Positions 12,205 through 57,942 of a stretch of 64,000 nt of DNA are shown here, one piece after another. The translations under genes were made by a program, and so were the position numbers. Position 1 is the stretch's first letter. Each line of letters begins with the position of its first letter. The stretch is from Eledone cirrhosa (lineage: Eukaryota): positions 323,144,001-323,208,000 of the forward strand of contig OZ024742.1 of assembly GCA_964016885.1 (NCBI GenBank). Reading direction: 5' to 3'. The notes beneath the pieces were generated by a model, which saw only the letters and a list, made by a program, of their open reading frames with translations, had not been told where the DNA came from and made no database searches.

Positions 12205-12211
<7 letters not shown>

Positions 12212-12984
12212 AATTAGTATATCTACTAACATATATATATAGATGCATACCTATGCCAGCAAATATATAGGTTTTGTCTTAGTAACTTTGTGGTTCAATG
12301 CATGGGGATGCAGAACAATAATATGAAAGACGTAAAATAAGAAAATTATAAAAATTAACTTACTTACTAAAATTTCACTCCAACTAATTAGTTTCTGAAA
12401 GAAACGTACGGAGAAGCCTTTCGTCATCAGGGAAGTCTATTCTCAGCTAAGTTTCCAGGCAATGCGTGGACACAGGGAACTTATACAAAAATAATTCAGT
12501 GAATGGAAAAAAGCAAAGCGTGGACTAAGTTCCAAGCCATTGAAAAAATCACTGCCTACTGCGTCGGTGGTAAATTCAAAAGAATCAATCACGTGACATC
12601 GAGGTTAATCAGTGGGGAGTGTTTTGTTAAGAAGACAGCAGCCGAACCGTTACTATGAACTATAGTAGCAGTTTTGGCCAATTTTTGCTCGACAAAATAA
12701 TTTGGAGATAATTATAAAGAATTAGTATATCTACTAACATATATATATATAGATGCATACCTATGCCAGCAAATATATAGGTTTTGTCTTAGTAACTTTG
12801 TGGTTCAATGCATGGGGATGCAGAACAATAATATGAAAGACGTAAAATAAGAAAATTATAAAAATTAACTTACTTACTAAAATTTCACTCTTCGGAAACT
12901 ATGTTTATTGCCTTTCAGAAACTAATTAGTTGGAGTGAAATTTTAGTAAGTAAGTTAATTTTTATAATTTTCTTATTTTACGTC

Positions 12985-12992
<8 letters not shown>
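12205..12992 (-). mobile_element. Penelope-like pseudo-LTR element: partial tandem plus inverted copy, within (TA)n
   Basis: 12205-12380 is repeated directly at 12715-12890. 12911-12992 is an inverted copy of about 12322-12401. Contains a hammerhead fold. Confidence 0.75.
12377..12437 (-). ncRNA. Type I hammerhead ribozyme motif
   Basis: Minus strand: gacttcc CUGAUGA c gaaagg..tctttc a GAAA ctaattag UU ggagt. Palindromic stem III, short stem I. Confidence 0.65.
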
Positions 12993-13022
<30 letters not shown>

Positions 13023-13167
13023 ATATATATATATAATTAAAAGTTGGTTAGAAGCGAAGTCAATGCAGACAGGCAGACAGATATTATAAACGCGCGACGT
13101 TATAGCTATGTATCTATCTAAAAAGACAGAGTAAGAAAGAGAGAGGAATGTTGTATTATATATATTA

Positions 13168-14175
13168 CTAGCAGCAGTACCCAGCGTTGCCTGGGTAGGT
13201 AAAATAATATCTACTTTGATGAAAAGGTGTTGATCTTAGGGACTGCTTCTCGATGACTCATCTATGGCCACACACAGGCCATGCGGGGGAGGGTGGTGAT
13301 GACCTCTATCACTGAGAAACGCGGGTGATTGACGAAGGGGCATGCTGGGGGAAGGAGGTAATGACCTCTAACACTAAGCCAAATTTCCTCACGCTACTTG
13401 ATAGGAAACCGATGAATTCCCAAATACACAACTAAAAGCTCAGACGACGTCAGTGGCCATCGTTTTACCCTTGACCATCTATAAGATGTGCAATGATAGG
13501 TTCTATCGTAGTATAAAAGTTGAACCAAATAAATTGATTTATGTGTGAGGTGGAGCCGAAGTTTCGAATTTGAACGAAATTGGTTGAAAAATGTGGGAGC
13601 TAGAGCCGAAAAGGCGGAAATTTGAGCGAAAAGGTGGTATTTTCGAATATTTAAGCGGCTGCCACGCTGTTTCTGAACAAAAAATCTAAAATGTAAAGCC
13701 ACCATATGACGTGAAATAATCAGATATAGCGTAGTGTAAAATTTGAACAAAGTAGGTTGATTAATGTGGGAGCTAGAGCCGAAAAAGTGGAAATTTGAAT
13801 CTAAAAGTGGTATTCTTCGAATATTTAAGCGGCTGCCACGCCATCCCTGCACAACAAATGCAAAATATAAAGCCATTACAGGATGTACAATGATAAATTC
13901 TATTTTGCTTTAAAATTTGAATGAAATCGGTGGCAAAATGTGGGAGCTAGAGCCAAAAATCTTATTTTTCGATACCTAAAAAAAGGTGACCCCCTATCGA
14001 TTTTTATCTGCAGAATGACCCCGGAATAAAAAAAAAAAAACGATACGCTGATATATAGAAAACACTCCCCGATGACTAATCTATGAGCCTGTAAAGTTTC
14101 ATGAAAATCGGTCATAAGATGTAGGCCCCTATAGGTAATACACAGACACACACATACTTAATTTTATATAATAAA
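13168..14175 (-). mobile_element. Non-autonomous Helitron-like element with internal tandem repeats of about 180 bp
   Basis: CTAG at 13168 with hairpin tacccagcgttgcctgggta (13178-13197). The end resembles that at 10618. aatgtgggagctagagcc occurs three times within 13560-13960. Confidence 0.75.
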
Positions 14176-14570
14176 GTACCAGTAATGTAGTCAGCTTTAT
14201 TAATAATATAGATAGAGATTGACAATATACACAGAAATTTAATCTATGATACATTAAAAAAAAAGACGATATTATATATAAACTGCAAAATATATGAATG
14301 TTTATTTAAGCGTTCGCTAGCTGGAAGTGTTGACATTTGAAAATTTTAAAGAAGTGAATCTTTAGATAAACAAAACATCTTTAATCAATAATAACGAAAT
14401 TTAGTAGACAAAAATACCCTCACTTTCTTCCTTGGAAAAAGTTACATCTATGGTGTAAATTTGGTGTTGTTTGGTGCAGCCGTTTTGCCAAAAGTTTGTT
14501 ACATACATACGGTTGTCAGCTTTATTAATATATATATATATATATACACATATATATGTATATATATATG

Positions 14571-14671
14571 CAGGGTTTCCCCAAAAAATGTATACACACT
14601 TCAACAGCAATCTAATAAATATTGCCTGTACAGGTAATCATAGTGTGTATACATTTTGGGGAGACACCCTG
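14571..14671. mobile_element. Tc1/mariner-type MITE (101 bp)
   Basis: TIRs cagggtttccccaaaaaatgtatacacact and agtgtgtatacattttggggagacaccctg. TA on the right flank. Confidence 0.85.
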
Positions 14672-14692
14672 TATATATTTATTTATATTAAT

Positions 14693-15022
14693 GGAGGCAC
14701 ATGGCTTAGTGGTTAGAGCATTGCCCTTGCAATCGAAAGGTTGTGAGTTCAATTCTCAGACCGGGTGATGTGTTGTTTCCTTGAGCAAGACACTTTATTT
14801 CACATTGCTCCAGTTTACTCAGCTGTAGAAATGAGATGATAGGGACTGGGGTACCTATCATTCCACTGCAAAGTGGTCATGGAGGTGCCACAGCAAAAAA
14901 GCACCCAGCACTCACTGTAAATGAGGTTGGTGTTAGGAAGGGCATCCAGCTGTAGAAATCAAGCCAGAATCAGTTCCCATCCAACCCTTGCAAGCAGGGA
15001 AAAGTGGACGTAAAATGAAAAA
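14693..15022 (+). mobile_element. SINE family 1, full length
   Basis: Near-identical to 6146-6455, with complete tail gggaaaagtggacgtaaaatga. Confidence 0.9.
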
Positions 15023-15024
15023 AA

Positions 15025-15560
15025 ATGAAATTAAGGTTAAAAAATGAGTCTTGTTACTCTGGAGTTTTGCCTGTTTATCACAGGTCACCAGCCATCAACC
15101 ACATGCAGGAATTTTGTTTTCTTTCGTACTTCTATTTGAGCTGTTTGTTTTATCACATACACATCATACCAACAGAAAGATCTATTTTTCTCTTGCACAA
15201 TCGAGCTTTTTAAAACGGGACTCTCAATTAAATTGTACAAAACTATTTTGCTGGTTTGAGAGCTGATGAGGGTAAAGATGTGTGTGTGTAAACTTGTCTT
15301 CTACATCGCCTTTCTTTCTTTCCTTCTTCCAGTCACTTCTGTGCGCCAACACTTCTCCTTGTCCTCCTCCTCTTTCAATCTTTTCTATATTTTGTTTGCC
15401 TGTCAGCCACCTTGTGGATTGTCTCTCTGTTGACCACTGGCCATTGGTCTCTGTCCTCTGAGGCATTTTTGCCCAATGCTGTCTTCGACAGCATTTAGAT
15501 GTTTTAACGGCTCTTCTAGCAATGAGTTTTCTCATTTTTATATGTATTCAATATATATAT
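15025..15560 (+). mobile_element. Possible decayed Penelope-like 3' end
   Basis: Frameshifted peptide weakly like the GIY-YIG C-terminus at 38 kb, then ctgatga at about 15263. Terminal 15450-15560 recurs inverted at 54710-54815. Confidence 0.35.
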
Positions 15561-15779
15561 ATATATTTATTCATCTTCATACTACTATTGGGAATTGTAG
15601 TTTGTTGTTCTTATTGTCCTAAGATAGATAGATAACTTAAGATAGCAGCAATTGACCACTAATATGCTTGTCAACACTAGAGAGAAATATACCAAATTAC
15701 CATTTCCCTTTCAAAGTTAGCACCGAGTAGTTGTTACATGATCCTTGTATTTTCTTACAATGATATATGTATGTGTGTA

Positions 15780-16075
15780 TGTGAAGGTATGTGGCTTTTA
15801 GTGATTAGGCTATTCAGCTCATGGTCATAAAGTCCTGAGCTCTGTTCACAGTGGTGACCTAGATCAAGTCCGCTTAGGTGGAAAAAATGAGATGTACCCG
15901 TAATTCAAATATCCAGCCCTGTTCGACACCTTGCTGTGCTGTATCTCCCTGAGAAGTACACTAAGAGTACATGTATTTATGGAATACTCAGCCATTATCA
16001 TGTTAAATTTATGAGCAGGCTGTCCCCTTGATCAAACAACAGGAACATACTTCATGGATACCAATGGAGGTCCAA
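15780..16075 (+). mobile_element. Older tRNA-headed SINE (related copies at 19835-20100, 29205-29490, 39780-40060, 47275-47560, 48505-48810)
   Basis: Decayed A/B-box head like family 1 and shared body ctccctgagaa...tgcacattaatttcatgagcagg. Confidence 0.6.
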
Positions 16076-16319
16076 CTTTTATCTGACTCTGAGTGTGAAT
16101 GTGTGAATAAGCAAAATAATTTTAGGTGAAATTGCTGAGTCATCATCCTTTGATAATCTGACCTTTCAGAATTATACAGTAGGGGAGATAATTGGTTAAT
16201 TATGTTTTATCTGGAGATTCTCATGCTTTTGGGATTATAGACACGATATAGAGGTGTGGGTTATTCATATAATGCTCCTACATAGCTTGGATAGTAGAAA
16301 TATAGAAATAACTTTAGCT

Positions 16320-16640
16320 GATAGACATAACTTTTGGGTTAACCTTGGGTGCTAGACATGACCTTAGGTTAACCTTGGGTGGTAGATATAACCTTTAGGT
16401 TAACTTTGGGTGGTAGACATAACCATTGGGTTAACCTTGGGTGGTAGATATAACCTTAGGTTAACCTTTGGTGGTTAGACATGACCTGGGGTTAACCTTG
16501 GGTAGTAGATATGAATTTGGATTAACCTTGAAAGGTAGACAATCTTGGGCTAACCTTGGGTGGTAGACATAACCTTGAATAGATGGCTTCTTAATCTTAG
16601 GTGATATACTGAACATTGGCTGGTAGCCTTAACCTTGAGT
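16320..16640. repeat. Minisatellite, unit of about 30 bp (gggttaaccttgggtggtagacataacctt)
   Basis: About 10 degenerate tandem copies. Confidence 0.9.
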
Positions 16641-18419
16641 AATAGACTTAATCTTTGGTTGTAGACTTGAAGCAAAATCTCTTCACAGTTTCCTACGATG
16701 TTCATTTTTCTTTTTGTCCAGAATTGTTGTTGCTGCTTTGTCTGGGAAAAGCATCCCATTAGATCATTTACACTTTATCAAAGATAAGACTCTTTTCACC
16801 TCAGTCTGCTCTCATTTCTCGGCAGAGACATACATCACATAGAGTTGCTCTAGCAAGCAGAGAGATGTAGCGTTTAGCCAAAATCTCTAGCGCTCTTGAC
16901 AGGATTGGCACCTCGATAAAAGCTAGTTCAATGCATCGTGTCAGACTACTACACATTCATGCAAACCAACATAACAAATAATTCACTTGGTTCCTTGTTG
17001 TTTTCTTATATTGTCAACAATAGCTTCAACATTCAAGTTATTTTTGTAATAAAAATTATTATCGTAGCGATGTTTGTTATTGTTCATTGGATATTGTTAA
17101 TGGCAGCTTTACTTTCAACTACTGACTATGGCAACAAATACAGCCACATATCTCAACTCACAGAGACACACACTCTCAATTCATTGACCATAAATCACAA
17201 ACATTCTCACAGCACTTATATGGGAGAGAGCAATTCATGGAATCACCTATCAAGCCAAAAACATTTTTACTACATCTGCCATGCTAAAAAAAAACGTAAA
17301 CCCAAACCATCTCTTTTGCAACATCAAAAATATACATCTCTAAAGACTTTTTAATATCAAACCAACTAAAACCACTATATATATTTTAAAATAAATCTAT
17401 CCCTTTTAAATTGTTAATTTGTAGAGTTAAACTTTTTATCATAATTGTAAATAAGAAACATTTATTAAGTTATAAGGTTTTATTTTAAAAAATGCAAGTG
17501 TCTTTTGTGGTTATAAAAACGGAAAAGGAAGGGAAAGGCAATGGATCTAGGGTCACAGAAGAATGGGAGGAGGGAGAGGGGCGCATCAGTATTTGTTAAG
17601 TTATGTTTCAAACACCAGCTTAATAATAGAGGAGTTAGTTATTTGACTATTCTTGATTATTTTCAAAATTCATTGAGCCACATAGCCAGTATATTTCAAT
17701 AGAAATAAAACCTTGAAAGAATTTATATTTATTTAAAAACCTTCCATCTTCTGGTTCACAAGAAACTTAAGGGCTACACATAGAACAAACCTGAGATTCC
17801 AGCATCAAGCCATGCCTTCCTCTAAAACAGAGATGATACCCAAAGAAAAAGAAATGTATTTAGTAACATTGTTGATAGCCTAAATGTTGACAAAAATGTT
17901 ATTTTAGGGCTACATTTTAATATATAATTAAAACGAGATGCCCCAACACCCTATACTATGCAGCCCTGGGTGGCAGCCCACTTAGCCCATAAAGCAACTA
18001 GAGAATAATTAGGACCTCAAAAGTCATATTTCACAGATATACTTTGGTATATATTTTAATATATATTTTAATGTATATTTAAAATTTGACAGACACCTCC
18101 TGGTCTATGAGACCCTAGGCTACAGCCTCCTTATCCCATGTGTAAATTTGGTACTATCCATAGGTGACATATATTGACAACTACAAACTGTGTCATACTG
18201 TCTCAACTATCTCCTGAACATTTGTAGATTGTGTTTAACTAAATTGTTATCTATGGGCAGGCTGGCTACTTTCTTGTGTTGTCTGAGAACATGTAGGCTG
18301 TATTGCTATAGTGTTGTGTGGCTATGTCAGTATATCGTTATTTATGTCAATGAACAAATTGATAACTGTGAGAAGAATCAGCAGGTTACATAGAGATTCT
18401 AGTGTACTTTGGATAAGGA

Positions 18420-19035
18420 TTTCTACAATAGGCACAAGGTCAGCAATTTTGGGAGAGAGGGTAAGTAAATTAAATTGAGCCCAGTGCATTACTGGTACTT
18501 TATTTTATCGACCCCATAAGGTTGAAAAGCAAAGTTAATCTCGGCAGGATTTGAACTCAGAACGTAAAGGGCTGTAAAGCATATTGTCTGATGCTCTACC
18601 AATACTGCCGATAATGTTTTCTAATTTAGCTACAAGGTCACACACATTTAAAGAAAGGAAATAGTTGGTTATATCAATACCCACTATTTGACTAGTACCT
18701 AATTCATTGACCCTGGAAAGATGAGATGCAATATAAATCTTAGCAGGGATTTAAACCCAGAAGATGCAATAAATTACCAGCAAGTCCAATTTTTGCCCAA
18801 AACTTCATCCTGTAAATTCATTGTTTTTCATAATAACAACAGTTCCTAATTTAGGAACAATGCTAGCAATTTGGAGAGAAGAGGATGTTGATTAAATCAA
18901 CTTCAGTACTTAACTGGTACTTTATTTTATTAATTTTGGAAAGATGAAAGTTGACCTTGGGAGGATTTGAACGTAGAACGTAAAGAGTCAAAACAAATGC
19001 TGCAAATCATTTCAACCAACCTCCGAACAATTCTG
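18420..19035 (-). mobile_element. Cluster of three decayed Nin/Deu-domain SINEs (family 2)
   Basis: ctggtactttattttatcgacccc...gatttgaactcagaa repeated at 18490, 18690 and 18910. Confidence 0.65.
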
Positions 19036-21140: not shown

Positions 21141-21319
21141 TCAGGACTCTGGATACAAATCCCACCAAGGTCAACTTTGTCTTTCATCCTTACAGGGTCA
21201 ATAAATGAGTCCCAGTTCAATACTAGAGTTGATTCTTTATTTCCTTCTCTCTCTATTTATCTCTCTCTTTATATATATGTACACAATGTTTTGGTATCAA
21301 AACATATTTATTATGTATG

Positions 21320-22286
21320 ATGAAATAGTGGACAGCTTCCGTTACCTGGGTGACAAAATCAGCAGTGGGGGAGGGTGCTCTGAAAGTACAGTAGCTAGAG
21401 TCAGAACTGGATGGAAAAAGTTCAGAGAGCTTATACCACTATTAGCCGCTAAAGGGTTCTCCCTAAAAATGAAAGGCAGGTTGTATGATGCCTGCATACG
21501 AACAGCAATGTTGCATGGCAGTGAGACCTGGGCATTGTGTGCAGAGGATATACGCAGACTAGAGAGGAACGAAGCTTGCATGCTCCGCTGGATGTGTAAT
21601 AGTAATATACGTGAACGGCAAAGCATAAACGAACTAAGGAAAAAATTAGAAATAAGAGGGATCAGATGTTGTTTACTCGAGAGAAGGCTACATTGGTATG
21701 GACACGTGATGCGCATGAAAGACGATAGCTGTATAACAAAGTGCAGGGCAATAAAGATAGACGGTAGCCACGGAATAGGCAGACCTAGAAAAACCTGGGA
21801 TGAGCTGATAAACTCCGACCTCACACACTTACACCTCTCCAAGACAATGTCACTGGACCGAGACCTTTGGCGGTACTCAGTAATAGAGAAGACCCGCCTT
21901 ACCTAAATACATAGTAAAACCTACTACAGTCAGTAGGCATCTCTAACAAAATACACCCCCGCCCCATCCACACCGCCCCCTTCTATGTAAAGTTGTGTTA
22001 GTGCCACACCATCCAGGCCGAAACAAATGAGATCGTGTAGGTGTCACGACAAAAAAACACACAGTCCACGCTGTAATGTGGCCGTGTAGGCAACACGGTA
22101 AAAACCTCCCAGACCCACACTGTAAATGTGGTTGGTGTTAGGAAGGGCATCCAACTGTAGAAAACCTGCCAGACAGTCCTATGCGAGCAAGACAATCACT
22201 CTTGCCTCAAGTGGGAAAACCCCCCGTCCAAACCCATGCAAGCGTGGAACACGGACGTTAAACGTTGATGATGATGATGATGATGA
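21320..22286 (+). mobile_element. 5'-truncated RTE LINE (subfamily B): ORF C-terminus, 3'UTR and (GAT)n
   Basis: EIVDSFRYLGD...GWKKFRELIPLL...HGSETW...GRPRKTW, homologous to the C-terminus of the 6473 ORF. Confidence 0.92.
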
Positions 22287-22696
22287 CCATGTTTCTCATT
22301 AAATAAGCTCAATGGACCTTAGTTCAGAGCATCAATGATAATTTTAATTTAAAAGATATATATATATAGAAAGAGAAAAAGTCATATATCATTTGAGAAA
22401 CACATAGTATTTTGTATACATATATAATACAAATAATACTCAGGAAAAAAATACTTACGTCAAGGTGAAAAAGTTAAATCTTCCTTACTGTTTCATAGTA
22501 AAAAAAAAACAAGAGAAAAGCAAAATCGATCTAAGCAATCTACTATCAAATACCAATTATTGATTCTGGTAGGGCCAACAGAAGACAAGGAACTAATCAT
22601 CAGAGAAAATTGTCTTTACATATGTCTCACACTGTACAAAATATATTTGTATCTGAGAGGAGTGAATCTATCTACACCGTGTATATATATATATAT

Positions 22697-23600: not shown

Positions 23601-23783
23601 ATATATAATATTAAGGATACTATTTATAGTTATGTATATTTTAAACTATAAACAGGGAAGGTCAGTAATTTATTACTACCTTATTACCAGTAAGATAAAT
23701 AGCTCAATGTAATAACATCAGTTGTTCTACAGAGCAGTTATATAGAATTCACAAGAATCAAAGCTATGTTCAAAGCATTTATT

Positions 23784-23830
23784 CACTTACAATTGTTTCA
23801 TCCAAACCTAGGCTTGGAGTCTTCGGAGCA
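23784..23830 (-). ncRNA. Hammerhead-like motif (left-arm copy)
   Basis: Reverse complement of 24701-24747. Confidence 0.55.
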
Positions 23831-24700
23831 TTTTTCAATGTTTGTACATATAATTGACTTCCTATCCAACGCAGGAGACATACAGATACATATATATATA
23901 TTGATGTACAGTGGAGTAACATATATTATAGTATACTATATTTGTACAGCAATTCAAATTTAAAATCAAAATCAAAATTAAAATTAAAATTAAAATACAT
24001 GCGGCAGATAACACAGATAATGTAAGGGGATAGTTTGATAATCAGATCTAGTAGATAGTGTATGCGTTAGTCACACATGGAGCATGCAAGTGTGTCTCAT
24101 TTATATACGATTATTGTGTGGCAAGGTGTTACATGTAATGCAAGCACTTTAAGTGGGTAAGCAAGAGTATTATGGTGGTTGTAGTGGTAGGGTATGTTTT
24201 GTATAGTTTTTACATGTAAAAACTATACCTTCGTTTTTCTGAATGTGAAAATGGTGGTGGATGCGAAAACTATAACTTTCTTTTTCTTTTTCTTTTTCTT
24301 TTTCTTTTTCTTTTTCTTTTTCTGCACACATACTTTTTTGATCTATACAAAAAATACCCTACCACTACAACCACCATAATACTCTTGCTTACCCGCTTAA
24401 AGTGCTTGCATTACATGTAACACCTTTCCACACAATAATCGTATATAAATGAGACACACTTGCATGCACCGTGGATGACTAACGCATACACTATCTACTA
24501 GATCTGATTATCAAACTATCCCCTTACATTATCTGTGTTATCTGCCGCATGTATTTTAATTTTGATTTTGATTTTGAATTGCTGTACAAATATAGTATAG
24601 TATAATATATGTTACTCCACTGTACATCAATATATATATATGTATCTGTATGTCTCCTGCGTTGGATAGGAAGTCAATTATATGTACAAACATTGAAAAA

Positions 24701-24747
24701 TGCTCCGAAGACTCCAAGCCTAGGTTTGGATGAAACAATTGTAAGTG
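24701..24747 (+). ncRNA. Type I hammerhead-like motif with variant core CCGAAGA
   Basis: tgct CCGAAGA c tccaagcc-ta-ggtttgga t GAAA caattg UA agtg. Confidence 0.55.
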
Positions 24748-24782
24748 AATAAATGCTTTGAACATAGCTTTGATTCTTGTGA

Positions 24783-24849
<67 letters not shown>

Positions 24850-26250: not shown

Positions 26251-26562
26251 TTAATATTATATATTAACCCATGCTAGTGTGGAAGATAGACGTTAATCGA
26301 CGATGATGATGATTATTTTGTATTTATGTGTGTGTGTAAGAAGAAAGAGTGAAAGAAATCAGTATGTGTGTATCCTTTAAAAGACAGACAACAGCTGTAG
26401 TATATTTATTAGGTTTTGGTTTTTGTCAATGAAGGAAAGAATTCTTTCTGCCAAATCTATTGCAACTACAGAAAAATCGAACAACCATTATTAGATCTGT
26501 ATCAATCATATATATATGTGTGTGTATATATGTACATATACAAACATATATATATATATATA

Positions 26563-26904
26563 GGCATGGCTTAGTGGTTAGAGCATTGGCCTTGCAATCA
26601 AAAGGTTGTGAGTTCAATTCTCAGACCGTGTGATGTGTTGTTTCCTTGAGCAAGGCACTTTATTTCACATTGCTCCAGTTTACTCAGCTGTAGAAATGAG
26701 ATGATAGGGACTGGGGTCCCTATCATTCCACTGTAAAGTGGTCGTGGAGGTGCCACGGCAAAAAAGCACCCAGCACTCACTGTAAATGAGGTTGGTGTTA
26801 GGAAGGGCATCCAGCTGTAGAAATCAAGCCAGAATCAGTTCCCGTCCCACCCTTGCAAGCAGGGAAAAGTGGACGTAAAATGAGATGATGATGATGATGA
26901 TGAT
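26563..26904 (+). mobile_element. SINE family 1
   Basis: Near-identical to 14693-15022. (GAT)n tail. Confidence 0.9.
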
Positions 26905-27154: not shown

Positions 27155-27920
27155 CTGTCCCATGGTCGGGTCGTTGGCGACTAAACTGGCAACCCTACCA
27201 AGGTTTCTTGGTGAGGAGGGTGACTTTGGACATCCTGCAGGACTAAAAACAAAACATGTCAAAGGAGCTCTTAAGAGTCAATGGCCATCCAAAATCACCA
27301 GGAGAGATGACCCCTTAGCCTTTGTCAAGGCAGAATTCTAGGAGAAGGAAAACTCTGATATAACACCTGCAACCCTGATGGTATCCAATGATGTTGACTT
27401 GTTCTTCTTTTTGGTAAATATCATCTTGGTTAAGAGAGTGGGACTGGCTTTGTGCAGTGCCTTTGCTCACTATAAAAGCTTCACTGCACAGGCATTGCTT
27501 TATATCTGGAAATCTCTCTGCACTTGTCGTCACATGGTACCATGGGCCCAGCACTATGTGTCAATAATTGTCGCAAGTGTAGTGTTTGTACCAGAGTTTT
27601 CAAGTTGCTGGCTGGACTAAAAAGTCACACTCGTTCAGCGCATCAGTAGGGGTTCTCCTACATGGATATAAAGTAGTGGCCGTACTCGAAAACGAGTTGG
27701 CAGCCACCATATATAACGAGTGTGACTTTTTAGTCCAGCCAGCAACTTGAAAACTCTGGTACAAAGACTACACTTGTGACCATTATTGACACATAGTGCA
27801 GGGCCCATGGTACCATGTGATGACAAGTGCAGAGAGATCTCCAGATAAAAAGCAATGCCTGTGCTATGAAGCTTTTATAGTGAGCAAAGGCACTGCACAA
27901 AGCCAGTCCCACTCTCTTAA

Positions 27921-27923
<3 letters not shown>
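27155..27923 (+). mobile_element. Internally deleted RTE-like element (5'UTR joined to a 3' zinc-finger end) with inverted duplication
   Basis: ggagaaggaaaactctga is an RTE-type 5'UTR motif. C-terminus CSVCTRVFKLLAGLKSHTRSAHQ*. 27715-27923 is the reverse complement of 27427-27635. Confidence 0.65.
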
Positions 27924-34750: not shown

Positions 34751-34757
<7 letters not shown>

Positions 34758-35573
34758 TAAAGTTAGTCCTTCATCAGTGATCTTCCAACCATCATTGGTA
34801 TTTCATCGCTTTAAAGACCATATACCTCCGGTGGTGCGAGCAACGGCTAAAAAAAGTCGTTGGGACACGTAAATAAAGGGGACATGAGAGTGTAAACAAA
34901 CAAAGATGGTGAAGCAACGAAAAGTGGGGATGAAAGAGTCAAGTCCCAAATTTCCATGAATATAAGTTCGGTGAAATCGTGAATGAGAGAGAATAAAGAC
35001 GATCAAACCTGGTTGGAATGTGAGCAAGGAAGGAATTCCGTACAGGTCTAATGGGAGGAAGAAGGAATTTAGTCTGTGAAATCGTAGACGAGAGAGAGAA
35101 AACAAGCGAACCTGCCTGGCCAAGGGTGCGAAAGAAAAGAATTACGCACAGGTAAAACGGGAAGGAGAAGGAGGAGAGGTAGTAACAGAGAGTGAGTGAG
35201 TGAAGGGTGAGGAAGAGGCTAACAGAGAGAGTGACTGTTAGAGAGGGTAAAGATACAGAGAAAGAGGAAGCTGTAAGAACGAAATAGACGGGTCACAGCG
35301 GGAGAAAAAATATGTGTAAATATGAGAATAAATGTGCTGCGTGGTTGCTAATGGGTTACATATGAATAAAGTTAGTCCTTCATCAGTGATCTTCCAACCA
35401 TCATTGGTATTTCATCGCTTTAAAGACCATATACCTCCGGTTGGTGCGAGCAACGGCTAAAAAAAGTCGTTGGGACACGTAAATAAAGGGGACACGAGAG
35501 TGTAAACAAAAAAGATGGTGAAGCAACGAAAAGTGAGGAAGAAAGAGTCAAGTTCCAAATTTCCATGAATATA
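34751..35573 (-). mobile_element. Element with terminal direct repeats of about 213 bp inside (TA)n, probably Penelope-like
   Basis: 34751-34964 matches 35360-35573. No TG..CA ends, PBS or PPT. TA tracts on both sides. Confidence 0.6.
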
Positions 35574-35705
35574 TATATATATATATATATATATCAAGAT
35601 AAGCAGAACAAGTAAAATTCAACCAATTTTTCAAAATAAATCAAAATTAATATACAATTAAAATTAATCAAAATTAAAAAATATAATATAAATATTTACC
35701 TATTC

Positions 35706-35795
35706 AAATGGCCCTAACTGTACAGTTTCACGGTGCAAAACATTAAATATCACGAGGATATTAATGGAAAAGCAACGATCATCAGAGAAGCATTT
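35706..35795 (-). ncRNA. Type I hammerhead ribozyme motif with long stem II
   Basis: Minus strand: aaatgcttct CUGAUGA t cg..cattaatatc..gatatttaatg..cg t GAAA ctgtacag UU agggccattt. Stem I pairs at 9 of 10 positions, counting G-U. Confidence 0.72.
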
Positions 35796-35965
35796 TCCTG
35801 TCCTAGGGTTAAAAACCCCAGGAACGACAAAATATATGACCTCACTCCAACTAATACAGGTCTAAAAGGTCGTGAAAGTGACCCGTAAATACATTGGTGT
35901 ATAGTGAAGGCGGGAAATCGTAGACTAGAGGTCTATAATCGCTACTAAAAAAGATTTTTAGCAAC

Positions 35966-36022
<57 letters not shown>

Positions 36023-36251
36023 ATTATTATTATGTAATAAACAACATAAGGCAATTATTCCATTTACCAGTGGTTTCTTAAAAGCAAAAGGTTTTGCTTT
36101 CAATCCTCAGAACGAAAAAATCCTGGTTTGTTTATTGAATTTGGATCTTAAAAACAAAAAAAGCAAGCTATATGAAAGTGAGGCTGGAGAAGGAAGAAGG
36201 AAAGGAAAAAATAAAAACAAAATAAGACTACCCATACAACCACACATACAC

Positions 36252-36287
<36 letters not shown>

Positions 36288-36649
36288 GCATGTGTATGCG
36301 CGCACGCACGCACGCGTATACAAATATAAATATATTTCCCCCATACACATGTGTGTGCGTGCATGCGCGCAGGGTATGTTCTGTTGAAAGTGTCTCGTGA
36401 ATTTATGGCTACAGTTGTATAGATTATACTTAGAAATTGTCCACAGAATTCCCTAAACCTTCGTCAATATACTAGAACCTTTAAGAATTTAGCTTTTAAG
36501 GAATCTCCCCTTCCTCCAAATCTATCTACCCTGACTGACCCCATACTGATCTTACAGACACCTGTAAGCTAAAGAGATAGCTAATGATAAGGATTGGCTC
36601 CAATCTGAATACAGAAATCTGTCTGCCTATGTTCCTCTAAGAACAAACA

Positions 36650-36651
36650 TT

Positions 36652-36709
<58 letters not shown>

Positions 36710-36732
36710 TATCTACACACACACACGCATAC

Positions 36733-36767
<35 letters not shown>

Positions 36768-37152
36768 TGCATATATACACACACATACACACACACAAAA
36801 GCACATATACATACGCACGAAATAGTCAACGCATTCACACACTCTCACACATAAAAAAAATTTTTCAAATACAAATACATAACCGCATACATACGCATAC
36901 ATGCATAACCACGCACAAGTGTACAATCTATACACACACACAAGTGTATACAACTGTATGCACACACACACATATATGCATACATAAGCACACATATAAT
37001 TACATAAATACAAACGTACACACACTCATATATATATATACACACGTACACATACACACACATATACATACATAGCTAAACAATTATACACATACAAATA
37101 CATATATATCATAAACACGCATAACAGAACACAAACACACACACACATACAC

Positions 37153-37183
<31 letters not shown>

Positions 37184-37246
37184 TATACAATTATCAATAT
37201 ATACACACGCACATATGTACACACACACATATATACACACACACAT

Positions 37247-37313
<67 letters not shown>

Positions 37314-37400
37314 CATGCATACACACATATACACACATACACAACCACGCCCACACACATGCATACGCATACACACGTATATGCGTGTGTGTATGTAAAA
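36650..37400. repeat. Compound (CA)n/(TA)n low-complexity tract
   Basis: Directly visible. Source of many spurious ORFs. Confidence 0.9.
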
Positions 37401-37670
37401 CTCAATCTTAGATAAACCATAAGGACCTTACATATACGTATATTAGTAGTAAAGTATTAAAGCAACATAAGGCAATTATTCCATTTACCAAGGGTTTCTT
37501 AAAAGCAAAAAAAATGTTCATACAATCTTCAGGATGAGAGAAACCTGGCTTATCCACACATACACATATATACACACACACACAAATACATACATATATA
37601 AATACATACACACAGGCACACACACACATACGTATAAACATATATACATACACACATACACACACATATC

Positions 37671-37704
<34 letters not shown>

Positions 37705-37920
37705 CATACACATATATACACACAAATATACACACACATACACATAGGTATGTGGAGGGCAAGGCAAAAAGAATATATGTGGGGGCCGCATAGGAGAAGG
37801 TAAAATATAAGGGGAGGTAAGGGAGAAAAAAATATATAATAAATGTAGGTATACAAGAGTACAGAACGTAGAAACAGTAAAATAAAAACCGTAGCAGAAG
37901 TAAAGAGCGGGAGAAGGAGT

Positions 37921-38207
37921 TCAAGGCGGTTGATTTCTCATAGGAGTGTCAATCCAGTTACAGATCAGGTGCGGTCTCAGATGAGGACAGCATCTGAAGA
38001 TCTCAGTCTTTGAATTAAGGCAAGCGGAAGTGTCTCTCAAGTTTAGCAAAATCCTATACTTTTATGTGGTACACAAAGAACAATTCTTTGTGCCCCTTTG
38101 GTACTCCCTCGAATGGTCTAATATAGACCAATCCATAGGGTACGGGATGTTACTATCCTTGAGTTCCCACACCTTACTTGCGAGGGCCGTTGATGTTCGT
38201 TTATCAG

Positions 38208-38208
<1 letters not shown>
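37921..38208 (-). pseudogene. C-terminal GIY-YIG endonuclease region of a Penelope-like element (Naiad/Neptune-type)
   Basis: Manual translation: STALASKVWELKDSNIPYPMDWSIL...KNCSLCTT*KYRILL...LNSKTEIFRCCPH...*. One TAA at 38062-38064 sits where E of CxLCxxEK is expected. Confidence 0.75.
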
Positions 38209-51426: not shown

Positions 51427-51753
51427 CGTTTTTACGTCCGCTTTTTCCCTGCTTGCAAGGGTGGGACGGGAACTAATTCTGGCTTGATTTCTACAGCTGG
51501 ATGCCCTTCCTAACACCAACCTCATTTACAGTGAGTGCTGGGTGCTTTTTTGCCGTGGCACCTCCACGACCACTTTGCAGTGGAATGATATGGACCCCAG
51601 TCCCTATCATCTCATTTCTACAGCTGAGTAAACTGAAGCAATGTGAAATAAAGTGTCTTGCTCAAGGAAACAACACATCACCCGGTCTGAGAATTGAACT
51701 CACAACCTTTCGATTGCCAGGCCAATGCTCTAACCACTAAGCCATGTGCCTCC
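51427..51753 (-). mobile_element. SINE family 1
   Basis: Reverse complement of 14693-15022. Confidence 0.9.
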
Positions 51754-51803
51754 ATTATATGTATATATATACACACACACACATATATATATATATGTAT
51801 TAG

Positions 51804-52044
51804 ATAGTGAAATAGTGCGTCCGTTGTATTTTTGACTAAATAAATTAGCCTAATAATGGAGTTATAAAAACCATCAATGGAAAAATGAATGTGCATTGAT
51901 GTACATGGGACACAAACCCACATCTCTGGTTACCATGGCCATGGTAACCAGCTCATTCATTTTCCCATTCTGTAGGTTTTTATAACTCCAATTATTAGGC
52001 TAATTTATTTAGTCAAAAATACAATAGAGGCACTATTTCACTAT
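51804..52044. repeat. Inverted repeat (arms about 90 bp) with an inner perfect 26-bp palindrome
   Basis: Arms 51804-51891 and 51954-52044. ctggttaccatggccatggtaaccag at 51926-51951. Confidence 0.88.
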
Positions 52045-52106
52045 TTAATTTCAAATTCTCTGCTGTTTGTAAACAGCTAAAAAAGCTTTGTATCTTATAT
52101 ATATGT

Positions 52107-52488
52107 GAAGGCGCATGGCTTAGTGGTTAGAGCATTGGGCTTGCAATCGAAAGGTTGTGAGTTCAATTCTCGGACCCGGTGATGTGTTGTTTCCTTGAGC
52201 AAGACACTTTATTTCACATTGCTCCAGTTTACTCAACTGTAGAAATGAGATGATAGGACTGGAGTCCCTATCATTCCACTGGTCGTGGAGGTGCCACGGC
52301 ATAAAAAAGCACCCAGCACTCACTGTAAATGAGGTTGGTGTTAGGAAGGGCATCCAGCTGTAGAAATCAAGCAAGAATCAGTTCTCGTATGAGCAAGACA
52401 AGGTCAGCCAACCGGACACTGCCCACAATGGGACAACCCGTCTAACCCATGCTAGCGTGGAAGAATGGACGTAAAACGGTGATGATGA
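52107..52488 (+). mobile_element. SINE family 1 head and body with an alternative (RTE-B-like) tail
   Basis: Same A/B boxes and body. Tail gagcaagac...ctaacccatgctagcgtggaagaatggacgtaaaac. Confidence 0.85.
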
Positions 52489-53559
52489 CATATGTATATA
52501 TATATATATACATATATATATATCATCCTCATACCAATACTGATTCTATTTGTATATAATATTTCTGTCTTCTATGTGTCATGCAGGATACATCACTGCT
52601 TAAACACCTAAACACAACTTCTTGTCACATTTGGTTATAATTCATTTAGCTTTTGAATTATTTGATAACAAAACATTCTTTCATTTTACAATTATACTGT
52701 TGCTTACAACAAAGAAACTATTCTACTCTACTATAGAGTATGTATACTTATGTAGTCTCTCATCATTATCGTATTAATGTCTGCTTTCACTGCTAACAAG
52801 GGTTGGACAAGTCCATACACACCAAGTCAGAGCCACAGATCTCCCAGGCAGGCCAGGGATCTGTGTCTCACTTATGTATGGTAAGTGTTCAAGAGAGGTT
52901 GTCATGCCTTTCACACAACTGAGCGTCCTCCCAACCCGTTATTTGGAAAGATTTCTATGGCTGGGTGCCCTTCCTATCATCAACCCCTTTATAGCATATG
53001 CTAAGTGCGTTTATCATGTAAATCACCAACACTAGGGTAGTTGTCATGTCCTTGACATGACTGAAGTAGTGATGTTGAGAATAACTGTTAGGGAGTGCTA
53101 CTGGGAGGTGGGAGTGTAGATCAGGTCACATTGTATGCTGCAGGTCGGGTCTTTTTCAGCACTACATTGCGCCAGCCCTTGCAATATTTAGTCATTTTTG
53201 TTGTAAGGTTTAGCTTCGTGATAGACGTAATGCCCAGTACAAAACACTGACCTTCTCTTTTCTGGTCTACTACATTACCAATACAGGTGTTGGAGAAGGT
53301 CCTACGTTTCCATCATCTTGGGCCTCTAAGATGACTCTAGGGTGGATGTTAGGTATCCATTGATTTAAGTACTTTCAGGAAATGTGCTTTTTTTTTCCAC
53401 ACTATCTCTTCCTTTTCTCTTCAAACTAGTTACATATATCTCTTGCTAATTCATACATGCAATCCCTCTCTAATTCCTTCTTGTTTTTGCTGTCTAATGC
53501 TGTATCTGCTCTCTCATTCAATTTTCTTATCTTTCTGCATTATCTCTTTTGATATCACA

Positions 53560-53744
53560 CGGTGGATTGGCAGTATCGGTGGAGGGTCGGACGCCATTCT
53601 TTCCAGCATAGTTACGTCCCTTTACGATCTGAGTTCAAATCCCGCCGAGGTTGACTTTGCCTTTCATCCTTACGGGGTCGATAAAATAAAGTACCAGTAA
53701 TGCACTGGGTAATTGCTGGCCTTGTGCCTAAAGTAGAAACAATT
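53560..53744 (+). mobile_element. Nin/Deu-domain SINE (family 2)
   Basis: Close match to 26060-26250. Confidence 0.8.
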
Positions 53745-54191
53745 ATCTCTTTTAATATCCTGAAACAACTACATGAGAGACATAGAAGGACTGATAAAAA
53801 TAATGGTCTGTAATTTAGGCACAGCCAGTTATTTGAGAGGCAGGGTAAGTGAAATAAATCAGCCGCATTATTTGACTGCTACTTACTTTTACTGACCTCT
53901 GAATGATGAAAGGCGAAATTGACTTCAATGGGATTTGAACTCAGAACGTAAAGAGCCATAACTAAATATTGCAAAAGGATTTGTCCGATGTTCAAATGAT
54001 TCTGCTAATCCACCGTCTGAATAAATAATAATATTATCAATATTAACATCCATAGATCTATTGGCATTCCCACCATCACAATAGATACTACCTTTCGTTC
54101 ATTTTAGGATCCACACGATCTATTCAACAGACCTCTATAGTTCAATAACCATCTCTCTCACATACTCTCCCTACCTCGTTCTCTCTCTCTC

Positions 54192-54260
<69 letters not shown>

Positions 54261-54272
54261 ATACATGTATAT

Positions 54273-54609
54273 ATATTTATTAAAATAACAGATTAAACTT
54301 TAAGCAAAGAATCGCTGCTTTCACACTTAACGGGATCTTCTGAAACAAAAAAAATCAATCTGTGAACGCAGAAGTAAATATTTCGAAAAACGTTGCAACC
54401 GAAGGAAAACAGGAAGACGATACTTTGGTTCGTGAAGATGTTCCAGTTACAGCATTATGTATCGTCTTCCTGTTTTCCTTCGGTTGCAACGTTTTTCGAA
54501 ATATTTACTTCTGCGTTCACAGATCGATTTTTTTAGTTCCAGAAGATCCCATTAAGGGTGAAAGCAGCGATTCTTTGCTTAAACTTTAATTTGTTATTTT
54601 AATAAATAT
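54273..54609. repeat. Inverted repeat (arms about 150 bp, 35-bp spacer) beside (TA)n
   Basis: Arms 54273-54423 and 54459-54609. Confidence 0.9.
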
Positions 54610-54816
54610 TTGCTCTAGGGTTCTTATATATTTGATATATATTTATCCTTATCAAGCCCTCTTTGGATTTTAGTCTTCACATTTATTATTATTACTATAT
54701 ATATATATATATTGAATACATATAAAAATGAGAAAACTCATTGCTAGAACAGCTGTTAAAATAGCTAAATGCTGTCAAAGACAGCAATGGGCAAAAATAC
54801 CTCAGAAGACAGAGAA

Positions 54817-56325
54817 GTACCACAGATGCTCTCTTCTTTGTGAGGCAACTGCAGAAGTACCTAGCTAAAGGCAAACCCCTCTACTTGGCTTTTGTGGACC
54901 TGGAGAAAGTTTTTGACAGAGTCGCCTGTTCCATTATCGTGTGGGCTCTTAGTAAACTAGGAGTAGACAGGTGGTTTGTGAGGGCAGTACAAGCCATGTA
55001 TAGAGGAACAGCCAGCAAGGTCAGAATTGACAATGACTATTGCGAATAATTTAGCGTACAGGTTGGTGTCCATCAGGGCTCAGTTTTTACCCCTCTTCTG
55101 TTTAATATCGCCCTGCAGACAATAACAGAGGAGTTTAAGACTTGTTGCCCATGAAAACTCCTGTAGCAGATGATCTAACCCTTATAGCTGAATCTATGGC
55201 AGAATTAGAGAAGAAATTCCAAACCGAAAGCGTGACCGAGAATCAAAAGGTCTTAAAGTTAACTTGTCAAACCAAAGTTCTAGTATGTAGAAAAGAAAAC
55301 AGGGCCCAGAATCCCTCAGGGAAATGGCTTTGCTCAGTATGCAGAAAAGGAGTAGATAGAAATTCCAGCCTATGTCTCAAAAGCAAACTATGGGTGCATA
55401 AGAGATATAGTAGGATCTCAGGCAGGCTAGCAAAGAATGTAGGTTTTACATGTGGTCGATGCAGAGGTGCAATAAGTAGCAAGAGCCCACAGAATGCAAG
55501 CTCCTTCAAATGCCCAGAATGCTTTGTAGAAGTAGTAGAGAGTTTCTGTTACCTGGGTGACCAAACTAGCAGTGGAGGAGGGTGTTCTAAAAGCACAGGA
55601 GCCAGAGTGAGAATTGGTTGAAGAAAGTTCAGGGAGTTACTACTGCTGCTAACTACAAAAGGTTTTATCCCTCAAAATGAAGGGCAGATTGTATGATGTA
55701 TGTATACGAACAGCAATGTTCGTGAGACCTGGGTGCTGCACGCAGAAGACCTGCAAAGATTGGAAAGAAATGAAGCTTCCATGCTTCTATGGATGTGTAA
55801 TAATACATGAACGGCAAAGCATAAATGAACTGAGAGAGAAATTGGTCATAAAAGGATGAGATGCAGCGTGCAGGAGTGGAGATTGCATTGGTATTGCCAT
55901 GTGATGCATATGAAGGATGACAGTTGTATAAAAAGGTGGAGAATGCTCAAAGTTGATGGAAGCTATGGAGTAGGAAGACTTAGGATGAGGTGATAAAAGC
56001 TGACCTTACACAATTGCACCTCTCAAACAAGCTGAGGCATACATCTAGTGTGTGCCACCTACCACTCCATTACCCTTCCCATACACATCCCACGTCGTAA
56101 CATCCCATCCCTAGATCTACCTCTCCAACTCACAATCCCCATGCAGCTCCCTCAACCAAATCCCCAGTCCACACTGTAAAGTGGGTTGGTGTTAGGAAGG
56201 GCATCCAGCCATAGAAATCAAGTCAAAATCAGTTCTGTATGAGCAAAACACCACCATCTAACCTGGCTTGTCTCACAATAGGACAGCTTGTCTAACCCAT
56301 GCTAGCGTGGAAATTGGATGTTATA
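54817..56325 (+). mobile_element. Decayed RTE LINE (RT to 3' end)
   Basis: LYLAFVDLEKVFDRV, ADDLTLIAES, VESFCYLGD. Multiple stops and frameshifts. Confidence 0.9.
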
Positions 56326-56442
56326 TGGTTGGTCCAGTGTAATGTTTCACAACATAAAGAGAGGGAGTAAAAGAGAGATAGAGAGAAGAAACAAATGATG
56401 AAGTGAGAGTGTGTTCACATACACATATGCACACAGAAATAA

Positions 56443-56609
56443 TTATTGTTTCTACTTTTGGCACAAGGCCAGCAATTACCCAGTACATTACTGGTACTTT
56501 ATTTTATCGACCCCGTAAGAATGAAACAGGATTTGAACTCAGTCCGTAAAGGGATGTAACTGTGCTGCAAAGCATGGCATCCGACCCTCTACCGATACTG
56601 CCAATCCAC
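56443..56609 (-). mobile_element. Nin/Deu-domain SINE (family 2)
   Basis: Matches 34466-34655. Flanked by the direct repeat cacagaaataat (probable TSD). Confidence 0.8.
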
Positions 56610-56927
56610 ACAGAAATAATTATAGTCTAGTGAAAGAAAAATTAAATAAAAAAAGGAATGGGGAAAAGGGAGGGATACATTCTACACGCTTGGCTGAGCA
56701 GTACATCTGAGCTGCACCCCACTGATGAAATAGCAAAAGCATTATCGCAGAAAACAACCAACAATACCCACTGCATAAGTCATTCCACTTCACAGGTACC
56801 CTTCATCAGGAGAGATGCACGTCTTTCAATTTTGTGGAGGAAAACAGCAGTTTGGGGTCTGAGGACACATGAAGTCTAGATGGTACATGGCACAAATCAT
56901 TGCATACTTTAATACTATATGTATAGT

Positions 56928-57162
56928 AATTAAAAATAGAAGCTTTTGCCGCATTTCTGACTAAAGAAATTTTAGCCTGATAGTGGGGTTTAGAACTCCC
57001 TAAAAAATGGAAAAAGATGAGTATTGACGTATATGAGAGTCACATCTTTGGTTATCCAGACGTCAATACTCATCTTTTTCCATTTCTTAGAGGGTTCTAA
57101 ACCCCACTATCAGGCTAAATTTTCTTTAGTAAAAAATGTGGCGAAAGCTTCTATTTTTAATT
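56928..57162. repeat. Inverted repeat (arms about 103 bp, 29-bp spacer)
   Basis: Arms 56928-57030 and 57060-57162. Confidence 0.9.
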
Positions 57163-57724
57163 TCAAACTTGCTCGCTGTTTCAAAACATACATACTTATA
57201 TGTATAGTGTTTCAGCATGTCCAAAATTATAAATTTTTTTTAACCAAATGCAAACCTAGTGGATTTAGTTACTCATTTTTCATGTATTTATTTATTCTAA
57301 TACATATATTTATACTTTGTTTTTACTTACTTGATGGATGCACCCAGTACACTCTGTAAAGTGGTTGGTGATAGGAAAGAATTCCAGCTGTAGAAAACTT
57401 GTCAAAAAAAGGTTGGGAAGAGTTTTCAGCTGTGTGAAAGACATGTCAACTTCCCTAGTGTTCATTTACAAGATAAATGCACCCAGTACACTCTTTAAAG
57501 TGATTGGTAGTAGGAAGGGCATCCAGCTGTAGAAAATATGCCAAACAAAGGGTTGAGAGGACTCTTGAGTTGTGTCAAAGACATGATAATCTCCCTACAC
57601 AATTAAATGCATCCGTTGGATCATGGGAACGTTTTGCAAGCAAGAAGACTTCAATCCCACGTAAAGTGAGATGGTGGCCTCTTGCTCATCCGCAAGGAAA
57701 AATGAACGTTAAATAATGTTGATC

Positions 57725-57780
<56 letters not shown>

Positions 57781-57876
57781 ACATATTAATAAATGGAAAC
57801 TATATTTATTTTATTATACATACCCGGATATTGATATTCTCCGTGTATGTCAATATTTATTTATAAAACAAATCTG

Positions 57877-57942
57877 TATTTTATCTGATGAAAGCGCACC
57901 ATAATTTGCCTTGGTGGCCCTTGAAATATGTATAATAAAATA
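57877..57942 (+). ncRNA. Type I hammerhead ribozyme motif
   Basis: tattttat CUGAUGA aag-c-gcacca..tggtggc-c-ctt GAAA tatgta UA ataaaata. Perfect 8-bp stem I. Confidence 0.72.

What the first reader, a model, noticed from the sequence alone, without database searches (positions are those of the whole stretch)
12205..57942. Sequence-diverse, non-coding hammerhead-bearing retro-elements inserted in (TA)n tracts
Seen: four loci with no obvious shared primary sequence fold into the same type I hammerhead (12377-12437 -, 23784-23830 -/24701-24747 +, 35706-35795 -, 57877-57942 +). Each has a CUGAnGA-type box, a stem II, GAAA, a loop-less palindromic or near-palindromic stem III (ctaattag, caattg, ctgtacag, tatgta) and a UH site. 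All sit in short non-coding blocks beside TA microsatellites. Known: Penelope-like elements carry such minimal hammerheads in their pseudo-LTRs, and these are thought to cleave as dimers. Inference: many distinct ribozyme-bearing families, autonomous or retrozyme-like, co-occur here with conserved structure but divergent sequence. They are probably unannotated in cephalopods.
Basis: partly seen in the sequence, partly recalled or inferred. Interest (0 to 1): 0.8.

Follow-up and report, generated by a model that had tools for sequence, protein, structure and literature searches.

The report
Penelope retroelement ends and ribozyme passengers
The four predicted hammerhead ribozymes belong to high-copy Penelope-like retrotransposons and to short non-coding repeats that likely borrow their enzyme; all of them end at two fixed points, each followed by the same small predicted hairpin, which likely marks where copying into DNA starts.

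Summary
The four folds are real: 5 descriptor hits in the window against at most 1 in 3513 shuffles. A fifth family was missed (36065-36110). Only two of the four are non-coding. B and D, and the missed E, are 5'-truncated ends of RT + GIY-YIG Penelope-like elements with Hydra-clade motifs. A and C are 523-530 nt tandem non-coding units of the retrozyme type. Such ribozymes, TA targeting and even an Octopus Hydra element are published (PMC4209133, PMC7229834, PMC8557442).
The less ordinary result lies downstream of the ribozyme. Each family has two fixed 3' end points (280 of 285 ends). Inverted insertions use one of each (63 of 66; never the same point twice). A bulged hairpin starts 6-10 nt past the end points in coding and non-coding families, in a family picked independently by Rfam, and in Hydra-like elements from marine metagenomes. 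Likely, one RT dimer primes both nicked target strands beside these hairpins. Cleavage, expression and binding are untested. The scan noted a similar TA-targeting tandem repeat in another genome (e1-7810660).

The parts
12209..12989 (-). Family A insertion: 681-nt minus arm (1.3 units of a 530-nt non-coding repeat) ending at site 2, plus a 99-nt inverted plus arm (from about 12891) ending at site 1; TA runs on both sides
12382..12430 (-). Hammerhead core A (CUGAUGA, C.A at the base of stem II, shortened loop II, 8-nt palindrome, UU site)
12293..12316 (-). Bulged hairpin 1 of A, inside the tail (second copy 12803-12826)
12687..12708 (-). Bulged hairpin 2 of A
23603..24786 (.). Family B: inverted pair of 5'-truncated 3' ends of a Hydra-type Penelope-like element; left arm ends at site 2, right arm at site 1
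23788..23826 (-). Hammerhead core B, left arm (CCGAAGA box, 6-nt palindrome, UA site)
24705..24743 (+). Hammerhead core B, right arm
23702..23735 (-). Bulged hairpin 1 of B, inside the tail
35595..35968 (-). Family C: partial unit of a 523-526 nt non-coding tandem repeat, ending at site 1, between two TA runs
35716..35785 (-). Hammerhead core C (CUGAUGA, U.U at the base of a long stem II, 8-nt palindrome, UU site)
36019..38208 (-).
36065..36110 (-). Hammerhead core E (CUGAGGA, stem III with 1-nt loop, UA site)
57779..58078 (+). Family D: 5'-truncated 3' end of a second Hydra-type element ending at site 2, with a short inverted left arm ending at site 1
57885..57934 (+). Hammerhead core D (CUGAUGA, 6-nt near-palindrome, UA site, 8-bp stem I)
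57992..58011 (+). Bulged hairpin 1 of D, inside the tail

Best explanation
These loci are truncated insertions of two coding Penelope-like retrotransposon families with Hydra-clade motifs (B, D) and of two non-coding tandem repeat families (A, C) that are likely copied by the same kind of enzyme, which likely starts beside two predicted RNA hairpins lying just past the hammerhead. Shown: element anatomy, coding links of B, D and E, tandem units of A and C, two fixed end points per family, one-of-each usage in inverted insertions, hairpin position. Inferred: a transcript holds the region past the hammerhead at its 3' side (tandem read-through, or a unit cut by paired hammerheads and closed into a circle). 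An RT-endonuclease dimer binds hairpins 1 and 2 of one RNA and nicks both strands of a (TA)n tract. Each nick primes at the AUAU/UAUA-like point 6-10 nt 5' of one hairpin. Two cDNAs of independent length are then joined into an inverted insertion with the tail on one arm only. The window copies themselves are likely dead: none has two hammerheads in the same sense.
For: Coding link: B copies run without a break into an RT-EN frame (L123/L124, 2886 nt at 91%; L159 is 95% identical to the window copy). A sister family has many 832-aa open frames with equal scores, flanked by the hammerhead on both sides. D's 3' region follows a second RT-EN about 50% identical. E follows a third. Non-coding units: 530, 523-526 and 481 nt, longest ATG frame 34-59 aa, no PLE protein match below E 0.33, arrays up to 7 hammerheads between TA runs, none joined to a frame in 17 loci. 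Compensatory changes between sister families in stems II and III. Ends: 159 at site 1, 121 at site 2, 5 elsewhere, of 285. Inverted pairs: 63 of 66 use one of each, 3 have one off-site end, none use the same site twice. Either arm can be the longer and both can exceed one unit. Hairpin: found at 18 of 20 sites tested in a fixed window, and the other two just before the window. It occurs exactly twice in the first 250 nt of 6 of 7 references, once in the seventh; chance 75 of 7000 shuffles. The family returned by Rfam Hammerhead_1 shows the same two ends (4 and 4 of 8) and hairpin 1. Three of 9 metagenome loci show both hairpins before the frame (L267, L268, L273; some read by eye), and L270 shows the one-of-each ends by eye. 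In vitro, a Poseidon element nicks and extends both strands and starts at two internal sites that bound the tail (PMC11167929).
Against: No cleavage, expression or binding data. In PMC11167929 the start site did not differ between top and bottom strand, hammerhead cleavage was not needed for insertion, and the authors saw no homology between start site and cut DNA, whereas here every end sits on a TA-like point. The drawn double hammerhead is the lowest-energy dimer for only 1 of 8 segments, and beats two folded monomers in 6 of 8, not for the window copies of A and C. Only 1 of 9 retrozyme dimers cleaved in vitro in Li et al. 2026. U4C lowers activity in vitro (PMC3088659). No long homology links A or C to any of the coding elements held, so the helper is not identified. 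The hairpin descriptor was derived from these sequences. Two of its four outer pairs never vary. Some hammerhead families in the loci gave no hairpin match at their ends, for example a 310-nt tandem family. The loci are top-scoring young copies, ends count only when followed by at least 5 TA units, and duplicates were merged by sequence, not by place.
Confidence: 0.68

Rival explanations
1. Same elements, but one priming event only: the hairpins are read as DNA by the GIY-YIG endonuclease, which resolves a fold-back or template-switch intermediate and so leaves the tail on one arm.
For: Craig et al. ascribe the tail to endonuclease resolution. PMC11167929 reports that the D. virilis endonuclease needed the tail to cut. 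Hairpin 1 lies inside the tail.
Against: Hairpin 2 lies beyond the end of every insertion and is present only in tandem or 5' copies. In vitro, both tail ends are RT start sites. Both arms vary freely in length.
Confidence: 0.17
2. A and C are pseudo-LTR fragments of coding elements not found here, amplified locally by unequal crossover as satellite DNA, not independent passengers.
For: Li et al. 2026 propose this origin for retrozymes. Only about 150 of thousands of candidate copies were inspected.
Against: Arrays are short (1-7 units), dispersed over many chromosomes, bounded by TA runs, and end at the same two fixed points, often as inverted pairs. No A, C or C' copy inspected runs into a frame.
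Confidence: 0.1
3. The hammerhead folds are inactive relics or mere protein-binding structures; mobility does not involve self-cleavage or circles, and templates are tandem read-through RNAs.
For: Mismatch at the base of stem II, U4C in B, UU sites in A and C. Cleavage was dispensable in vitro for Poseidon.
Against: Core kept and stems covary between sister families that differ elsewhere (C versus C': 372 identical of 481-523 nt). The same mismatch pattern recurs in published Hydra hammerheads. This rival is compatible with the hairpin-priming part of the best explanation.
Confidence: 0.3
4. Chance folds in AT-rich sequence.
For: No Rfam hammerhead match at these loci.
Confidence: 0.01

Closest known systems
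Hydra-clade Penelope-like elements (Craig et al. 2021, PMC8557442), including Hydra-1_Obim
   Same: Single frame RT then GIY-YIG; RW[KR], DKT, CxCx5C, CxxC and CxH motifs, no CCHH; hammerhead in the pseudo-LTR, often with an extra base after A9 and a mismatch below stem II; (TA)n targets; inverted 5'-truncated copies; tail on one end.
   Different: Unit about 4.2 kb with a 1.4-1.5 kb 3' region (published: under 3 kb); tails 60-170 nt (published 30-40); fixed U4C box in B; paired hairpins and the strict one-of-each rule are not described in the main text.
Animal non-LTR retrozymes (PMC7229834; Li et al. 2026, 10.64898/2026.07.22.740005)
   Same: Non-coding head-to-tail units, one type I hammerhead per unit, low GC, dispersed short arrays, coexisting with Penelope-like elements.
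   Different: Units 481-530 nt (PMC7229834: about 170-450; within Li's 51-972). Penelope-type rather than canonical hammerheads. Insertion ends and hairpins match the Hydra clade directly. Circular RNA not shown.
Minimal Penelope hammerheads (Cervera and de la Pena 2014, PMC4209133)
   Same: Long stem II, 4-5 bp stem I, extra base after A9, palindromic stem III, predicted dimer use, high diversity within a genome.
   Different: G10.1-C11.1, called highly conserved there, is absent in A, B, C, D and E (present in C'); palindromes are 6-8 nt.
Poseidon of Anolis in vitro (Frangieh et al. 2024, PMC11167929)
   Same: Two internal start sites downstream of the hammerhead define the tail; both strands nicked; dimer predicted.
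   Different: There the sites are adjacent, in an AC-rich stem-loop inside the frame. Here they are 60-170 nt apart, upstream of the frame, on TA-like points, each with its own hairpin.

Membership tests
Hydra-clade PLE (B, D, E) | Single frame with RT and C-terminal GIY-YIG | tested here: met
   832-aa frame with YRDD and a C-terminal endonuclease-type region; Atlas neighbours at 0.96-0.98 include RVT_1 and GIY-YIG clusters; Pfam itself gave nothing below E 0.035, GIY-YIG at 0.49 in 1 of 5
Hydra-clade PLE (B, D, E) | RWK, DKT, CxCx5C linker, CxxC and CxH, no CCHH | tested here: met
   Read from the frames against section 11 of PMC8557442: B' has RWR, DKT, CNCRANRTC, CNLC, CQH; E has RWK, DKT, CSCRKPDEC; D has RWR and the linker, its DKT region was not read
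Hydra-clade PLE (B, D, E) | Hammerhead in pseudo-LTRs on both sides of the frame | tested here: met
   B' and B, D; for E only 3' copies seen
Hydra-clade PLE (B, D, E) | (TA)n insertion, inverted truncated copies, tail | tested here: met
Hydra-clade PLE (B, D, E) | Groups with Hydra elements in an RT tree | not tested
   Published proteins were only compared by eye
Non-LTR retrozyme (A, C) | Non-coding tandem units, one type I hammerhead each | tested here: met
Non-LTR retrozyme (A, C) | Self-cleavage of the transcript | not testable with these tools
   folding only
Non-LTR retrozyme (A, C) | Expressed as circular RNA | tested here: inconclusive
   no RNA holder listed; contigs of unknown kind
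Minimal type I hammerhead | Core boxes, stems I and II, palindromic stem III, UH | tested here: met
   U4C in B
Minimal type I hammerhead | G10.1-C11.1 pair | tested here: not met
   C.A, C.U, U.U, A-U, U-A in A, B, C, D, E; met only in C'. Many published Hydra hammerheads also lack it
Rfam Hammerhead_1 (RF00163) | Model score over the cut-off | tested here: not met
   no match at these loci; another family in the genome matches (18 of 74 scored)

The most novel reading that the evidence does not exclude
Hydra-clade Penelope elements carry an undescribed pair of bulged RNA hairpins that a dimeric telomerase-like RT binds to prime both nicked target strands from one RNA (programmed twin priming). 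This would explain the tail and the inverted copies of Penelope insertions. Hammerhead cleavage plus circularisation would place these hairpins behind the element's 3' end, and 0.5-kb retrozymes need only hammerhead plus hairpin pair to be mobilised by that enzyme.
Probability: 0.4. Interest if true: 0.8.

Novelty: new variant of a known kind. Interest (0 to 1): 0.58.

Why it matters
How Penelope-like elements make tails, inverted copies and tandem units is an open question, and which enzyme moves retrozymes has rested on co-occurrence and pseudo-LTR similarity. This genome offers an apparently intact 832-aa Hydra-type enzyme in many near-identical copies, young non-coding passengers, exact predicted start points and a 16-40 nt candidate signal with a built-in compensatory test. 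That makes both questions directly testable in vitro. The hammerheads alone are ordinary.

Tried and rejected
Rfam scans gave no hammerhead at the window loci (108 rows, 150 of 156 rows shown, one HH9 at E 0.68 on another family in L170). Pfam and PDB sequence searches did not name the protein. Sequencing runs: no RNA holder listed; contigs of three runs of unknown kind told nothing on expression. Penelope fragments next to A and C copies (L013, L072 and others) are separated by TA runs and were taken as neighbours in the same tract. My first idea that B's 3' region is a decayed second endonuclease was dropped once the true frame was found upstream. One search had a TA run inside the B reference and gave false B rows; replace it. 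Arm lengths for D were unreliable (10 of 15 without bounds) and are not used. For E the filter against internal TA runs was lifted, and one E row is a probable double count. Inverted repeats at 27427-27923 and 54273-54609 carry no hammerhead or hairpin match. No tree, structure or complex prediction was run. Literature searches for the hairpin or the rule (word finds) found only PMC11167929 and PMC8557442 as relevant; subscription journals and Repbase were not searched.
Full report
Observation. The four loci read as described. A descriptor for a minimal type I hammerhead with loop-less palindromic stem III finds 5 sites in the window: A 12382-12430 (-), B 23788-23826 (-) and 24705-24743 (+), C 35716-35785 (-), D 57885-57934 (+). 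In 3513 shuffles that keep dinucleotides in 500-nt blocks the mean is 0.011 and the maximum 1; the descriptor was written after seeing the loci. Allowing an odd loop adds E at 36065-36110 (-). Rfam does not see these motifs. The window lies in a 3.0-Gb genome; the host was not established by my calls. Each locus belongs to a dispersed family: 2446, 1721, 1306, 156 and 1120 first-look candidates for A-E (40 scored each).

Two kinds of carrier. B copies continue upstream through about 1.5 kb of non-coding DNA into an RT-endonuclease frame. L159, 95% identical to the window copy, has hammerheads on both sides of a 573-aa frame. A sister family B' has many 832-aa open frames with equal scores, with the hammerhead 4.2 kb apart on both sides. 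D continues into a second such frame, about 50% identical. E continues into a third, whose last 95 codons lie in the window at 37924-38208. The proteins show the motifs that Craig et al. give for the Hydra clade. A and C are different: head-to-tail units of 530 and 523-526 nt, and 481 nt for the sister C', with ATG frames of at most 59 codons and no match to six PLE queries below E 0.33. Seventeen C and C' loci show 1-7 hammerheads between TA runs and none joined to a frame.

Is the fold under constraint? Copies within a family are too alike to say. Between sister families the stems covary: stem III CUGUACAG in C versus CCGAUCGG in C'; CAAUUG in B versus CAGCUG in B'; the second pair of stem II is A-U, U-A or C-G in three A subfamilies. 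Against activity: mismatches below stem II, U4C fixed in B and B', and alternative folds of lower energy for 7 of 8 segments. U4C is reported to lower activity in vitro yet allow viroid infectivity (PMC3088659, passage). Minimal PLE hammerheads cleave weakly and only as multimers (PMC4209133).

Ends. In 265 stored loci, 280 of 285 distinct ends before a TA run fall on two points per family, downstream of the predicted cut: A +57/+173, B +43/+180, B' +42/+208, C +122/+232, C' +88/+196, D +50/+141, E about +46/+108. Each point is a TA-like stretch inside the element. Of 66 inverted insertions, 63 have one arm at site 1 and the other at site 2, 3 have one off-site end, and none repeats a site (59 of 61 without E). 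With independent choice about half would repeat a site. Either arm may be the longer (A 13 versus 8, C' 2 versus 7, B 1 versus 4), and both can exceed one unit. Limits: young top-scoring copies, duplicates merged by sequence only, and several long loci chosen because they held inverted pairs. That the tail is often on one end only is published (PMC8557442).

Hairpin. Six to ten bases past the end points starts the motif (R)YUC-stem-loop-stem-UN-GAR(Y): a 3-4 bp stem, a 2-nt 3' bulge, then a variable upper stem. It was found at 18 of 20 sites in a fixed 12-nt window; the other two start just before that window. It occurs exactly twice in the first 250 nt in 6 of 7 references; the seventh copy has a change in hairpin 1 that the window copy lacks. 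Shuffled regions match in 75 of 7000. In 24 hand-picked examples pair 2 is U-A in 7 and C-G in 17, and pair 5 takes four forms; both were required by the descriptor, and pairs 3 and 4 never vary. Independent checks: the family returned by Rfam RF00163 ends at two points, 4 and 4 of 8, with the hairpin just after the first. Of 9 Hydra-like metagenome loci, L267, L268 and L273 show two hairpins before the frame and L266 one clear one; L270 is an inverted insertion with one end at each site; the other four lack the region or the motif (partly read by eye). By eye the motif also stands in published coral and sea cucumber Hydra consensus sequences, but not clearly in Hydra-1_Obim.

Mechanism. Established for a Poseidon element in vitro: both strands nicked and extended, two internal starts bounding the tail, predicted dimer, protein-assisted hammerhead not needed for insertion (PMC11167929). 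Inferred here: strict one-of-each usage fits one RNA held by a dimer with one subunit at each hairpin; two separate RNAs would also give same-site pairs. Hairpin 2 lies beyond every insertion end, so the template must be a tandem read-through or a circle; paired hammerheads offer a way to make the circle, as proposed in PMC4209133. A and C share ends, targets and hairpins with the coding families, which points to a Hydra-type enzyme as helper. Which family is the helper is unknown.

What is known. Hammerheads in PLEs, retrozymes in molluscs (PMC7229834), their PLE origin (Li et al. 2026) and an Octopus Hydra element with hammerhead are in print. A 2026 Octopus vulgaris repeat annotation has no occurrence of ribozyme, hammerhead or retrozyme in its main text (PMC13282606). 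The words hairpin and stem-loop do not occur in Craig's main text, and searches found no description of the hairpin pair. Papers seen: PMC8557442 passages, section 11, supplement part 2 and passages; PMC4209133 abstract, results, discussion; PMC7229834 parts 2-3 of 6; Li et al. parts 1-3 of 5; PMC11167929 parts 1-2 of 4; PMC3088659 and PMC13282606 passages. Supplements of PMC4209133, PMC11167929 (its stem-loop figures) and the preprint were not seen and may bear on novelty.

Verdict. The ribozymes and their carriers are new members of known kinds, half of them coding. The paired hairpins and the one-of-each rule are a possibly new and directly testable feature of Penelope transposition. Interest 0.58.

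Noticed in passing
window 22307-22680 (-): Decayed hammerhead-like element between TA runs: box at 22591-22603, a very long stem II region, GAAA at 22491-22494, and the bulged hairpin at 22307-22330 past a short TA run.
   Followed up: partly
G000:C2:87301571-87304700 (L237): Very young sister family C': 481-nt units, seven hammerheads in tandem, 0-1 differences among five full units, canonical G10.1-C11.1; 1864 first-look candidates.
   Followed up: yes
L075:183-803, L081, L184: Another non-coding tandem family (310-nt unit) with a short hammerhead and no match to the bulged hairpin at its ends; it may use a different Penelope clade.
   Followed up: partly
L275-L282: Family with a canonical hammerhead over the Rfam cut-off, ending at two points with the same hairpin; coding state not determined.
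   Followed up: partly
L151-L161: Many 832-aa open frames with equal scores on many chromosomes suggest a recently active family; 36862 first-look candidates for this RT type.
   Followed up: partly
window 6473-9517 (-): RTE-type non-LTR element with a 758-aa RT frame and an upstream AP endonuclease frame (family name from my own knowledge); fragments at 21205-21906 and 55139-55621.
   Followed up: no
window 33-788 (+): 251-aa frame resembling the end of a pogo/Tigger-type transposase (resemblance recalled, untested).
   Followed up: no
window 6125-6424, 14672-14971, 26537-26836, 51443-51757, 52086-52385: Dispersed 300-nt repeat with weak tRNA matches, likely a tRNA-derived SINE.
   Followed up: no
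window 27427-27923 and 54273-54609: Long inverted repeats beside TA runs without hammerhead; could be inverted insertions of other elements or MITEs.
   Followed up: partly
window 34755-34830 and 35365-35490: Two copies of a repeat with GAAA upstream of a CUGAUGA box on the minus strand, ending at a TA-like point; it does not fit a type I fold.
   Followed up: no
window 60545-61138 (+): 197-aa Ser/Thr/Asn-rich open stretch that may be a host exon.
   Followed up: no
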